The notes below the pieces were generated by a model. That model worked only from the letters and a program-made list of their open reading frames with translations, did not search any database and was not told the origin of the DNA. A program made the position numbers and the translations under genes. Of a stretch of DNA of 64,000 nt, positions 8,228-58,126 are shown one piece after another. The number at the start of each line of letters is the position of its first letter. Position 1 is the first letter of the stretch. This DNA is from Eledone cirrhosa (taxonomy: Eukaryota), in the NCBI GenBank assembly GCA_964016885.1, contig OZ024751.1:33480001-33544000 (forward strand). Direction: 5' to 3'.

Positions 8228-8416
8228 ATAGGAAAAAGTATGACCCCGACGGCAGAGCTCAAGCCGTTTCGACGGCTATTTCAGAAATAGCCGTCGAAAC
8301 GGCTTGAGCTCTGCCGTCGGCGTCATACTTTTTCCTATTTCCCACTCTACTACCCTAAGTATTGAGTACTCTGGTGCGTTATGGTCCATCTGGTTCCTTA
8401 CCACAATTCCTTTATT
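8228..8416 (+). mobile_element. Fold-back element family A (half-hammerhead palindrome plus tail)
   Basis: Palindrome 8228-8338 (ggaaaaagtatgaccccgacggcagagctcaagccgtttcgacggctatttc / reverse complement, one mismatch), then tail cccactctactaccctaagtattgagtact...ccacaattcc. (TA)n on both sides. Confidence 0.8.
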
Positions 8417-8692
8417 TATATAATATATATATATATATATATATAGAGAGAGAGAGAGAGAGAGACGTCAATTGTAACTTGTTGGTATGTTGTTATGTCA
8501 TAGAAGTGTCTTCCTATTCCCATCTTCGGAGTTCAATGACGTAACCACTTCTAGAATCCTCCCTACAAATTCCATTGTTCAACCCATGGAAACAGAAAAG
8601 ACACCTGGCCTACCCTGCACTAGAATTGAACCTAGCATCACCTGCTTTCAAATGATGTATATAATTGTAGTATTCACTGTATATATATATAT

Positions 8693-8747
8693 GAAATAGC
8701 CGACGAAACGGCTTGAACTCTGCCGTCGGGGTCATACTTTTTCCTAT
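8693..8747. mobile_element. Family A single-arm fragment
   Basis: gaaatagccgacgaaacggcttgaactctgccgtcggggtcatactttttcctat between TA runs, with no tail. Confidence 0.75.
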
Positions 8748-9039
8748 ATATATATATATATATATGCTACAATATATATAGCTGTTGCATTCACTATATA
8801 TATATATATATATATATATATATATATATATGCATACATATATATGCTACAATGTATATAACTGTAGTATTCACTGTAAATATATATGTGTGTGTATGTG
8901 TTTTATGGTGTATATATAACTGTAGTATTTCACTATATATATATATATATATTACTCTACAGTTCTTATATATTTGATATATATTTATCCTTATCGAGCC
9001 CTCTTTGGATTTTAGTCTTCAAAATGTATTATTATTACT

Positions 9040-11142
9040 ATATATATGCTACACTGTATATAACTGCAGTAATTACTGTATATATATATATATATATGCT
9101 ACATTGTATATACAGTAATTACTGTATATATATGCTACACTGTATATAACCGCAGTAATTACTGTATATATATATGCTACACTGTATATACAGTAATCAC
9201 TGTATATATATATATATATGCTACACTGTATATACAGTAATTACTGTATATATATATATATGCTACACTGTATATACAGTAATTACTGTATATATATATA
9301 TGCTACACTGTATATAGCTGCAGTAATCACTGTATATATATATGCTACATTGTATATACAGTAATTACTGTATATATATATATGCTACACTGTATATACA
9401 GTAATCACTGTATATATATATATATATGCTACACTGTATATACAGTAATCACTGTATATATATATATATGCTACACTGTATATACAGTAATCACTGTATA
9501 TATATATATATGCTACACTGTATATACAGTAATTACTGTATATATATGCTACACTGTATATAACCGCAGTAATTACTGTATATATATATGCTACACTGTA
9601 TATACAGTAATTACTGTATATATATATATATGCTACACTGTATATACAGTAATCACTGTATATATATATATATGCTACACTGTATATACAGTAATTACTG
9701 TATATATATATATATGCTACACTGTATATAGCTGCAGTAATCACTGTATATATATATGCTACATTGTATATACAGTAATTACTGTATATATATATATGCT
9801 ACACTGTATATACAGTAATAACTATATATATATGTATATATATGCTACACTGTATATACAATAATCACTATATATATATATGCTACACTGTATATAACTG
9901 CAGTAATCACTGTATATATATATGCTACACTGTATATACAGTAATCACTATATATATATATGCTACACTGTATATAACTGCAGTAATCACTGTATATATA
10001 TATGCTACACTGTATATACAGTAATCACTATATATATATATGCTACACTGTATATACAGTAATCACTATATATATATATGCTACACTGTATATAACTGCA
10101 GTAATCACTGTATATATATATGCTACACTGTATATACAGTAATCACTATATATATATATGCTACACTGTATATACAGTAATCACTATATATATATATGCT
10201 ACACTGTATATACAGTAATTACTGTATATATATATATATGCTACACTGTATATACAGTAATTACTGTATATATATATATATGCTACACTGTATATAACTG
10301 CAGTAATCACTGTATATATATATGCTACACTGTATATACAGTAATCACTATATATATATATGCTACACTGTATATACAGTAATCACTGTATATATATGCT
10401 ACACTGTATATAACTGCAGTAATCACTGTATATATATATGCTACACTGTATATACAGTAATCACTGTATATATATATGCTACACTGTATATAACTGCAGT
10501 AATCACTGTATATATATATGCTGCACTGTATATACAGTAATCACTATATATATATATGCTACACTGTATATAACTGCAGTAATCACTGTATATATATATG
10601 CTACACTGTATATACAGTAATCACTATATATATATATGCTACACTGTATATAACTGCAGTAATCACTATATATATATATGCTACACTGTATATACAATAA
10701 TCACTATATATATATATGCTACACTGTATATAACTGCAGTAATCACTGTATATATATATGCTACACTGTATATACAGTAATCACTGTATATATATATGCT
10801 ACACTGTATATAACTGCAGTAATCACTGTATATATATATGCTACACTGTATATACAGTAATCACTATATATATATATGCTACACTGTATATAACTACAGT
10901 AATCACTATATATATATATGCTACACTGTATATACAGTAATCACTATATATATATATGCTACACTGTATATAACTACAGTAATCACTATATATATATATG
11001 CTACACTGTATATAACTGCAGTAATCACTGTATATATATATGCTACACTGTATATACAGTAATCACTATATATATATATGCTACACTGTATATACAGTAA
11101 TCACTATATATATATATGCTACACTGTATATAACCGCAGTAA
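9040..11142. repeat. Palindrome-rich 38-42-bp minisatellite, about 2.1 kb
   Basis: Unit (ta)n-tgctacactgtatata[cagt|actgcagt]aatcact. Confidence 0.95.
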
Positions 11143-56143: not shown

Positions 56144-56337
56144 ATAGGAACCAGTAAGACCCCGACGGCTGAGCTCAAGCCGTTTCGACGGCTAATTCTG
56201 TCCAGAATTAGCCGTCGAAACGGCTTGAGCTCAGCCGTCGGGGTCTTACTGGTTCCTATTACCCACTCTACTACCCTAAGTATTGAGTACTTTGGTGCGT
56301 TATGGTCCACCTGGTTCCTTACCACATTTCCTTCGTT
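56144..56337 (+). mobile_element. Family A copy
   Basis: Arms ggaaccagtaagacccc...gctaattctg around loop tc, plus tail. TA flanks. Confidence 0.85.
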
Positions 56338-57435
56338 ATATATATATATATATATATACGGGAGGGTGAGCGAGAGAGAGAGAGAGAGTGTGTGAGAGAG
56401 AGAGAGAGAGAGAGAGAGAGAGAGAGAGAGAGAGAGAGAGAGAGAGAGAGAGAGACTGGGGGAGTATTTTGGTAGTGTCAAGTCCAGAACTTGACTTAAG
56501 ACACACACGCGTTGAAGGATGACAAAAATATATATAAAGGTGAGTTAACCTCCAATGTTCTCAGCTGTGATTATAGAATACTATGTGAACTATTGACTAT
56601 TAGACATCTCTATGATATTTTCTGCTTGAAAGAACCTCCATTGATGGCCAACAATGAGTGAAACCATTCAAATGTGTCTCTCCCAAAGTTGAAATTCTTG
56701 TATTTACCATTTAATTACTTCCAAATTATTTCCATGTTTATTTTCACTTAGTAATGTAGCTTTCTCCCTTTCTTACATTCTCTTCTTTCTTACTTTCTTT
56801 CTTCTTCTTTTGCTGCTGCTGCTGCTGCTGCTACTGCTACTATTATTACTGCTACTGGTGCTGCTACTACTGTTAACACTACATGTGCTACTGCTACTAC
56901 TAATACTGATGCTTTTGCTGCTGTTCCACCTTAGGGTGTGGTTTCTTAACAGTTGAAATGAGTTTCCGACTAAAAACATATTTTGTTAATATTTCACATT
57001 TCAGAGAGATAGTGTGATGGAGATTTGACATGTGTGTGTTGGTGTGTGTGTTGGTGTGAGTGTGTGTTGGTGTGTATTGGTGTGTATGTTGGTGTGTGTT
57101 GTGTGTGTGTGGAAGGGTATATAAATATATATATACACCCTCCCACACACTCAAGTATATATATATACTGTATATATATATATATATATATATACATACA
57201 TGACAGTAGGCCGTATATATATATATATATATATATGGGAAAAAGTTCATATATATATATATATATATATATATATATATATATATATGTATATATACGG
57301 CCTACCGTCATATATATATATATATATATATACGGCCTACCGTCATATATATATATATATATATATACGGCCTACCGTCATATATATATATATATATATA
57401 CGGCCTACCGTCATTATATATATATATATATATAT

Positions 57436-57629
57436 ATAGGAACAAGTAAGACCCCGACGGGTGAGCTCAAGCCGTTTCGACGGCTAATTCTGTACTCAAT
57501 TAGCCGTCGAAACGGCTTGAGCTCAGCCGTCGGGGTCTTACTTGTTCCTATTACCCACTCTACTACCCTAAGTATTGAGTACTTTGGTGCGTTATGGTCC
57601 ACTTGGTTCCTTACCACATTTCCTTCGTT
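57436..57629 (+). mobile_element. Family A copy
   Basis: Arms ggaacaagtaagacccc...gctaatt around loop ctgtactc, plus tail. TA flanks. Confidence 0.85.
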
Positions 57630-57925
57630 ATATATATATATATATATATATATATATATATGTATATACGGCCTACGTCATATATATATATGTATATATA
57701 TATATATATATATACGGCCTACGTCATATATATATATATATGTATATATATATATATATATATATATATACGGCCTACGTCATATATATATATATATGTA
57801 TATATATATATATATATATATATACCGCCTACCGTCATATAAATATATATATATGTATATATATATATATATATATATATATATATACGGCCTACCGTCA
57901 TATATATAAATATATATATATATAT

Positions 57926-58126
57926 AACGAAGGAAGTGTGGTAAGGAACCAGATGGAGCATAACGCACCAGAGTACTCAATACTTAGGTTAGTAGGGTGG
58001 GTAATAGGAAAAAGTTCAAGACCCCGACGGCAGAGCTCAAGCCGTTTCGTCGACGGCTATTTCTGGAGTCCAGAAATAGCCGTCGAAACGGCTTGAGCTC
58101 TGCCGTCGGGGTCATACTTTTTCCTA
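57926..58126 (-). mobile_element. Family A copy, inverted (tail-to-tail with 57436)
   Basis: Tail reverse complement aacgaaggaagtgtggtaaggaaccag..., then a palindrome centred on ctgga-g-tccag. Confidence 0.85.

What the first reader, a model, noticed from the sequence alone, without database searches (positions are those of the whole stretch)
8228..58126. Dispersed 190-bp half-hammerhead palindromes (family A), eight copies or fragments in 50 kb, always in (TA)n
Seen: copies at 8228, 8693, 13335, 37437, 37899, 56144, 57436 and 57926. The typical arm reads GAAACGGCT-tgagctc-AGCCGTC-GGGGTC, i.e. the GAAA box, a stem III (ACGGCT/AGCCGT) and a GUC triplet. The palindrome centre falls where stem II would be, so CUGANGA is replaced by the mirror arm and both strands carry only the substrate half. 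An 80-nt tail is on one side only. Inference: these are products of a Penelope-like element whose cDNA folds back within the ribozyme stem II region, giving a catalytically dead but abundant element. Alternatively they are substrates cleavable in trans by RNA from an intact master carrying gacccc-CUGANGA. I do not recognise this family as described.
Basis: partly seen in the sequence, partly recalled or inferred. Interest (0 to 1): 0.85.

Follow-up and report, generated by a model that had tools for sequence, protein, structure and literature searches.

The report
Penelope retrotransposon stubs mark ribozyme cuts
These 190-base palindromes are head-to-head stubs of a Penelope-like retrotransposon whose intact copies carry a complete hammerhead-type ribozyme, and the places where thousands of stubs stop likely record where its RNA starts and where the ribozyme cuts it.

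Summary
The eight copies are real. Each is the last ~141 nt of the pseudo-LTR of a Penelope-like element, most joined to an inverted, tail-less copy of the same end. Intact masters exist in this genome: a 721-aa RT + GIY-YIG ORF between 1.15-kb pLTRs, with Hydra-clade motifs. There are 11,823 short palindromes, with 35 different centres among 44 sampled: separate dead-end insertions, not a self-copying element. Simple fold-back is not supported: the tail-less arm is longer about as often as the tailed arm (15 vs 17). Arm 5' ends pile up at two places: 9-12 nt into loop II, at an initiator-like motif (likely the RNA start), and, in a second class of ~730 palindromes, exactly at the predicted scissile bond (42 of 106 arms). 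The architecture is known PLE biology. The pile-ups give a genome-scale test of hammerhead function and inverted-repeat formation; I did not find them in print. No RNA data were available.

The parts
8228..8412 (+). Palindromic stub, subfamily A1: inverted tail-less arm 8228-8282, sense arm + tail 8282-8412
   Evidence: 89% to master pLTR end
8693..8747 (+). Lone tail-less arm in (TA)n
13335..13466 (-). Lone tailed arm of an older subfamily, no mirror arm
   Evidence: (87%)
37437..37631 (+). Palindromic stub, subfamily A2
   Evidence: 95%
37899..38093 (+). Local duplicate of the 37437 insertion (same private junction)
56144..56199 (-). Type copy: inverted tail-less arm; its outer end is the second fixed 3' end (inferred second RT start site)
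   Evidence: 98% to master
56200..56216 (+). Type copy: remnant of loop II and 3' strand of hammerhead stem II; the arm's 5' end lies within the inferred RNA-start edge
56217..56244 (+). Type copy: GAAA box, stem III, GUC triplet, predicted scissile bond between 56239 and 56240, 3' strand of stem I
56259..56338 (+). Type copy: 80-nt one-sided tail; in masters it runs on into the 5' UTR ahead of the ORF
57436..57630 (+). Palindromic stub, subfamily A2
   Evidence: 96%
57926..58126 (-). Palindromic stub whose two arms carry different subfamily signatures (two templates)

Best explanation
The palindromes are dead-end insertions of a Hydra-type Penelope-like retrotransposon, likely made when both ends of a cut in (TA)n each prime a short cDNA that runs off the 5' end of the element's RNA, the two cDNAs then being joined head to head. 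Shown: the masters (pLTR-ORF-pLTR, with or without an inverted piece), two fixed 3' ends 80 nt apart, variable centres with short overlaps or untemplated bases, a sharp 5' edge 9-12 nt into loop II, and a second edge exactly at the predicted scissile bond. Inferred: the two 3' ends are two internal RT start sites, as measured for the anole element PAc, which nicks and extends both strands. The loop-II edge is the transcription start (initiator-like TTAGTC/TCAGTC, TATA-like word at -29/-31), so the mRNA begins with only the substrate half of the ribozyme while the 3' pLTR holds the whole ribozyme (about 60%). The second edge is the 5'-OH product of hammerhead self-cleavage in germ-line RNA (about 80%). 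The stubs themselves most likely do nothing.
For: Master: three copies with unbroken 784-788-codon frames among 150 scored hits. L165 has an inverted tail-less piece 1281-1728, pLTR 1778-2922, ORF 3010-5172 and pLTR 5322-6468 (97.6% to the first). The six palindromic window copies match its last ~141 nt at 88-98%. Exactly one tail in 44 of 44 and 53 of 53 sampled palindromes. Tailed arm longer 17, shorter 15, equal 12 (p=0.86). Arms from different templates: L226, L218, window 57926; family-A tail-less arms joined to GIY-YIG fragments of other PLE families in L061 and L062. Loop-II edge: 33 of 88 arms end at 9-10 nt and 1 of 88 beyond 12. Genome-wide, 27,022 arms reach 10 nt, 7,085 reach 15 nt, and 5,666 carry the 5' half about 50 nt up. 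Scissile-bond edge: 42 of 106 arms end exactly there and 10 more are blunt and ambiguous by one base, against 2 at +2 and 5 at +3. Ribozyme: the master's minimum-energy fold is the three-way junction (stem probabilities I 0.8-0.9, II 0.6-0.7, III 0.5-0.7). In 103 long copies U4, G5, A6, A8, A9 are 96-100% constant while the free position 7 is A33/C23/G38/T9. PAc two-site initiation and two-strand extension: PMC11167929.
Against: No RNA evidence: start site and cleavage are read from DNA junctions only. Arms usually share the subfamily key (27 of 44 identical vs 13.5% expected from random pairing). One RNA used twice, or later homogenisation, fits as well as two RNAs. None of 9 copies that run on into the 5' UTR (6 of them picked by their ORF) begins at the loop-II edge; they carry 77-1,040 nt of upstream pLTR. 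A cap-derived G is not demonstrated (G 5,202 vs A+C 6,034 before the edge). Fold z-scores are weak (-0.46 for A2, -2.28 for A1), Rfam finds nothing, and 13 of 103 long copies have a C3-A8 mismatch. For PAc, cleavage was not needed in vitro and no RNA-seq reads ended at the site. The samples are the first places on contig C1 and need exact anchor words, so they favour young copies.
Confidence: 0.7

Rival explanations
1. One cDNA folds back on itself near stem II, copies its own 3' part and joins the far target end through TA microhomology. Later deletions at the palindrome centre blur the asymmetry.
For: Arms mostly carry the same subfamily key, including private variants on both arms (L245, L241). 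The tail-less end lies at TTCCTA, which overlaps the TA target. PMC3846280 reads junction palindromes as self-priming.
Against: The tail-less arm is the longer one in 15 of 44, by 3 nt or more in 8. It reaches the far edge (10 nt or more) in 14 of 43 vs 9 of 43 for the tailed arm. 14 of 53 small palindromes have both arms at the scissile bond with 0-2 nt between. Discordant and cross-family arms exist.
Confidence: 0.12
2. Same element and two-ended priming, but the edges are reverse-transcriptase stalls at RNA structure or G/C-run deletion hot spots, not true RNA ends.
For: Stem III begins 1 nt above the scissile bond, and loop II holds a weak hairpin. None of 9 copies running into the 5' UTR starts at the loop-II edge.
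Against: A stall at the base of stem III predicts +1, not 0 (42 at 0 vs 5 unambiguous at +1). Untemplated bases at the junctions favour end joining over deletion. The loop-II edge lies past the strong part of stem II and on an initiator-like word kept in both subfamilies.
Confidence: 0.13
3. A non-autonomous 190-bp element (MITE, Helentron-type or retrozyme-like) with its own short master.
For: 40 of 40 scored genome hits are 98-100% identical over the whole 193 bp.
Against: Those hits were ranked by likeness to the query. Unranked samples have 35 different centres in 44, a continuum of longer copies leads to the PLE ORF, and only one end carries the tail.
Confidence: 0.04

Closest known systems
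Hydra clade of Penelope-like elements (Craig et al. 2021, PMC8557442), e.g. Hydra-1_Obim
   Same: Single ORF with RT and C-terminal GIY-YIG; RWR (RWK in homologs), DKT, CxCx5C linker, CxxC..E..N..CxH, no CCHH; (TA)n target; hammerhead about 100 nt from the 3' end; inverted 5'-truncated copy (noted for Penelope-13_HM).
   Different: A different family from Hydra-1_Obim (its protein differs, and 4 motifs of this element had 0 hits in the supplement). Unit about 3.5 kb with a 1.15-kb pLTR. All Hydra ribozymes listed in File S2 have a CUGA core and a loop II of 3-10 nt; this one has U3-A8, a loop II of about 35 nt and a 6-bp stem III. The tail is 80 nt, not 30-40.
PAc (Poseidon from Anolis; Frangieh et al. 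2024, PMC11167929)
   Same: Two fixed 3' ends define the tail; hammerhead at the pLTR-ORF junction; AT-rich target; both strands nicked and extended.
   Different: Other clade. For PAc no RNA ends were found at the cleavage site and cleavage was dispensable in vitro; here about 730 insertions centre on that site.
U3-A8 hammerheads of Schistosoma Cercyon PLEs (Cervera and de la Pena 2014, PMC4209133)
   Same: Covariant U3-A8 core in a type I pLTR hammerhead.
   Different: Those are minimal, dimer-type motifs; this one has a full stem III and is predicted to fold as a monomer.
R2 5' junctions at HDV ribozyme sites, and LTR minus-strand strong-stop DNA (both recalled, not tested here)
   Same: Genomic 5' ends that record a ribozyme cut; a short run-off cDNA from the RNA 5' end.
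   Different: Different ribozyme, enzyme and priming; analogy only.

Membership tests
Penelope-like element (EN+) | Single ORF with RT and GIY-YIG endonuclease | tested here: met
   721-aa ORF with FDIESYY, YRDDG, FLDVTL and NVIY..AYIG motifs; 1,921 homologs of 8,000 scored, best one annotated PF01541. Pfam and PDB scans of the ORF itself gave no hit.
Penelope-like element (EN+) | Pseudo-LTRs, inverted 5'-truncated copy, tail on one side | tested here: met
   L164, L165, L166, L168, L169; one tail in 44 of 44 and 53 of 53 palindromes.
Hydra clade | RWK, DKT, CxCx5C linker, CxxC and CxH around E and N, no CCHH, C-terminal EN | tested here: met
   Read on the ORF and 13 homologs against section 11 of PMC8557442; this ORF has RWR.
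Hydra clade | Insertion into (TA)n | tested here: met
Hydra clade | Canonical hammerhead (CUGANGA core) and length generally under 3 kb | tested here: not met
   Core is UUGANAA with long loop II (vs 75); unit about 3.5 kb. These are descriptive traits, so the element is filed as a variant.
Hydra clade | Placement inside the clade on an RT tree with named references | not tested
   Reference proteins were visible only as paper supplement text and were not typed in; likeness to Hydra-1_Obim was judged by eye.
Type I hammerhead ribozyme | Three stems around conserved core boxes and an NUH triplet | tested here: met
   Master fold and pair probabilities; position 7 free, other core bases constant in 103 copies. 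Not met by the window stubs, which lack the 5' half. Rfam found no match.
Type I hammerhead ribozyme | Self-cleavage 3' of the NUH triplet | tested here: inconclusive
   Indirect only: 42 of 106 arm ends fall exactly on the predicted bond; no assay or RNA reads.
Naiad | N-terminal GIY-YIG and no canonical hammerhead | tested here: not met
   EN is C-terminal.
Non-LTR retrozyme | Head-to-tail tandem units each with a whole hammerhead | tested here: not met
   Stubs are head-to-head and hold half a ribozyme.
MITE / TIR DNA transposon | Inverted repeats at both termini and one fixed internal sequence | tested here: not met
   80-nt tail beyond one arm; 35 centres in 44; ends belong to an RT element.

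The most novel reading that the evidence does not exclude
This element splits its ribozyme with its own promoter and uses it like an LTR boundary. Transcription starts inside loop II, and the whole hammerhead in the 3' pLTR cuts the RNA 41 nt further along the same sequence, giving a terminally redundant U3-R-U5 RNA. RT primed in the tail makes a 141-nt strong-stop-like cDNA that must jump to the 3' copy of R to make a full element, which would explain pLTRs and partial tandems. The 12,000 palindromes would be failed jumps on both strands, and the ~730 smaller ones run-offs from the cleaved 3' product.
Probability: 0.3. Interest if true: 0.8.

Novelty: new variant of a known kind. Interest (0 to 1): 0.5.

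Why it matters
PMC8557442 calls hammerhead function in endonuclease-bearing PLEs unclear and the formation of their tandem/inverted repeats undefined. PMC11167929 found no RNA ends at the PAc cleavage site. Here a young, very abundant family has left more than 12,000 junctions whose ends can be counted. They point to in vivo cleavage by a U3-A8 hammerhead, to two-ended priming and to a start site inside the ribozyme. The same count can be run on any assembled genome with PLEs. For annotation, these stubs look like MITEs or SINEs but are PLE by-products, and CUGANGA-only descriptors miss this ribozyme.

Tried and rejected
Rfam on the window (gathering) and on the master ribozyme (E up to 10): no match. 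Pfam and PDB sequence scans of the ORF: no hit (one weak unrelated hit in 1 of 14 members). Splice-acceptor reading of the loop-II edge: it predicts a cap at 8 nt, but 2 of 88 arms end there against 33 at 9-10. Cap-G test: inconclusive, confounded by microhomology and a subfamily with C at that place. No RNA holder listed; the four runs laid were contigs of unknown kind from one study, possibly the assembly's own sample, so they say nothing on expression or starts. The histogram was contaminated by the loci and is not used; the tail counts had an offset error and were redone. A strict 4-bp hammerhead scan of the window found none. A literature search for a recalled octopus SINE name gave only irrelevant papers. 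PMC5785218 was not held. Earlier findings of this scan: nothing. The host was not determined; octopus papers were consulted on a recalled resemblance only.
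Full report
Observation. Six are a 54-bp-arm palindrome with an 80-nt tail on one side, one is a lone tail-less arm (8693) and one a lone tailed arm of an older subfamily (13335). All lie in (TA)n. 37437 and 37899 are one insertion duplicated locally. The window is G000:C11:33480001-33544000 of a 3.0-Gb animal genome. 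Exact-word counts: 52,348 arms and 11,823 palindromes with a centre of 30 nt or less; reversed controls 0.

Finding the master. A pattern on that sequence gave 1,904 longer copies. Most of the 30 fetched ran into a common pLTR, and inverted pairs 2.5-3.8 kb apart enclosed RT and GIY-YIG frames. A protein search (150 of 66,305 candidates scored) showed three frames of 784-788 codons. L165 reads: inverted tail-less piece 1281-1728, pLTR 1778-2922, ORF 3010-5172 (721 aa), pLTR 5322-6468 ending in (TA)n. L164 and L166 are built alike. The window stubs match the last ~141 nt of this pLTR at 87-98%. The ORF has 1,921 homologs among 8,000 scored and carries the Hydra-clade motifs of PMC8557442 section 11. 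It is not Hydra-1_Obim. Pfam and PDB scans gave no hit, so the domain calls rest on motifs and homologs.

The ribozyme. The master pLTR holds a complete type I hammerhead with a U3-A8 core: ACCCC, UUGANAA, stem II with a loop of about 35 nt, GAAA, a 6-bp stem III, GUC, GGGGU. The 5' half has 5,666 exact matches. In 103 long copies gathered from all loci by anchors outside the core (30 of the loci had been fetched with a core pattern, which inflates constancy), U4, G5, A6, A8 and A9 are 96-100% constant. The free position 7 is A33/C23/G38/T9; position 3 is T in 87 and C in 13. The minimum-energy fold of L165 is the three-way junction, though z-scores are weak (-0.46 and -2.28) and Rfam has no match. 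U3-A8 cores are described for Schistosoma PLEs (PMC4209133). The Hydra ribozymes listed in File S2 of PMC8557442 all have CUGA and short loops.

How the palindromes form. I fetched 40 regions holding the first 44 of the 50 palindromes listed (one more, 18765698, lay in L167 and was not counted; the last five were not fetched). Each has exactly one tail, and 35 of 44 centres are distinct, with overlaps of 0-2 nt in 30 and extra bases in 11. The tailed arm is longer in 17, shorter in 15, equal in 12. Fold-back predicts it is always longer. Some insertions have arms of different subfamilies (L226, L218, window 57926) or a family-A arm joined to another PLE family's GIY-YIG fragment (L061, L062). 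PAc nicks and extends both strands and starts RT at two internal sites that define the tail (PMC11167929). I therefore read the palindromes as two cDNAs, one from each start site, joined head to head. Against this, arms share the subfamily key in 27 of 44 (13.5% expected), so both cDNAs usually come from one RNA or one source locus. One neighbouring insertion (present twice) has tails on both arms.

Two sharp 5' edges. First edge: 33 of 88 arms end 9-10 nt above the stem II 3' strand and only 1 of 88 passes 12 nt, although the pattern allowed more. Genome-wide, 27,022 arms reach 10 nt, 7,085 reach 15 nt (a subfamily with C at that place, 6 of 103 long copies, is missed), and 5,666 still carry the 5' half about 50 nt up (a different pattern). 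Read contigs show the same step in depth at L165:2770 (not a copy number). The edge sits on TTAGTC, or TCAGTC in one subfamily, with a TATA-like word at -29 (A2) or -31 (A1). The initiator consensus is recalled; PLE start sites lie in the pLTR (PMC2377424 and PMC8557442). I put the start-site reading at about 60%: none of 9 copies that run into the 5' UTR begins there, and a cap-derived G is not shown. Second edge: a pattern for very small palindromes of subfamily A2 gave 730 and 737 matches on the two strands. In all 53 insertions listed, 42 of 106 arm ends fall exactly on the predicted scissile bond, 10 more are blunt and ambiguous by one base, and 2 lie at +2 and 5 at +3, in a range that allowed -7 to +23. 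Untemplated A or T often lies between the arms, and 53 of 53 have one tail. The simplest reading is run-off from the 3' product of hammerhead cleavage (about 80%). A stall at stem III would give +1.

Trans-cleavage. A lone half RNA can co-fold with the enzyme half into the hammerhead, but on its own it tends to hide GAAA in an alternative hairpin (probability 0.6-0.75). A whole palindrome transcript forms a 54-bp hairpin of -125.6 kcal/mol. The stubs are unlikely substrates.

What is known and what is not. The architecture (5' truncation, inverted copy, one-sided tail, (TA)n target) is described (PMC8557442), and many other families in this genome make the same shapes (85 non-family-A palindromic islands among 186 in 1.17 Mb of partly redundant loci, some of them spurious). 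I found no report of PLE insertions piling at the hammerhead cleavage site or of a start site inside the ribozyme in searches; the library lacks most subscription papers. What I saw of each paper: PMC4209133 parts 1-2 of 4; PMC11167929 parts 1-2 of 4; PMC8557442 passages, section 11, and supplement searches and part 2 of 59; PMC2377424, PMC3846280 and PMC6765202 passages; PMC13282606 part 1 of 3; bioRxiv 10.64898/2026.07.22.740005 part 1 of 5 (its supplements were not seen). Repbase and Dfam entries could not be checked, so the family may already be catalogued under another name.

Verdict. A real, very abundant by-product of a variant Hydra-type PLE: element identity about 0.97, combined mechanism about 0.7. 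Ordinary as an architecture, useful as a fossil record of RNA ends. Interest 0.5.

Noticed in passing
window 13250-13318 and 8960-9040: Pieces of another (TA)n-targeting family with a hammerhead-like motif whose first box reads CAGAAGA; palindromic copies of it with centres near stem II occur in L179, L166 and L062.
   Followed up: partly
L009:2917, L169:537, L278:1865, L077:774: A second family of 150-180-bp palindromes in (TA)n that, read by eye, carries a compact hammerhead with the same U3-A8 core and a tight length range.
   Followed up: no
L181:5140, L201:3760, L015:857, L075:1887, L004:2516: Palindrome families whose arms end at the GAAA box, so that stem III of their hammerhead runs straight into the (TA)n target (by eye).
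   Followed up: no
L061:6900-7490 and L062:6620-7490 (minus strand): Family-A tail-less arms joined to 5'-truncated GIY-YIG fragments of other PLE families; the L062 partner ends in a canonical CUGAAGA hammerhead about 100 nt from its 3' end.
   Followed up: partly
window 57200-57900: A 13-nt unit with a small hairpin repeated at least 8 times inside (TA)n between two family-A copies.
   Followed up: no
G000:C11, about 17 kb and 27 kb beyond the window's right end (positions 81434 and 90791): A duplicated family-A palindrome with tails on both arms, the exception to the one-tail rule.
   Followed up: no
L167:7009-8499: A different PLE with a DKG motif and YVDD, not of the Hydra type.
   Followed up: no
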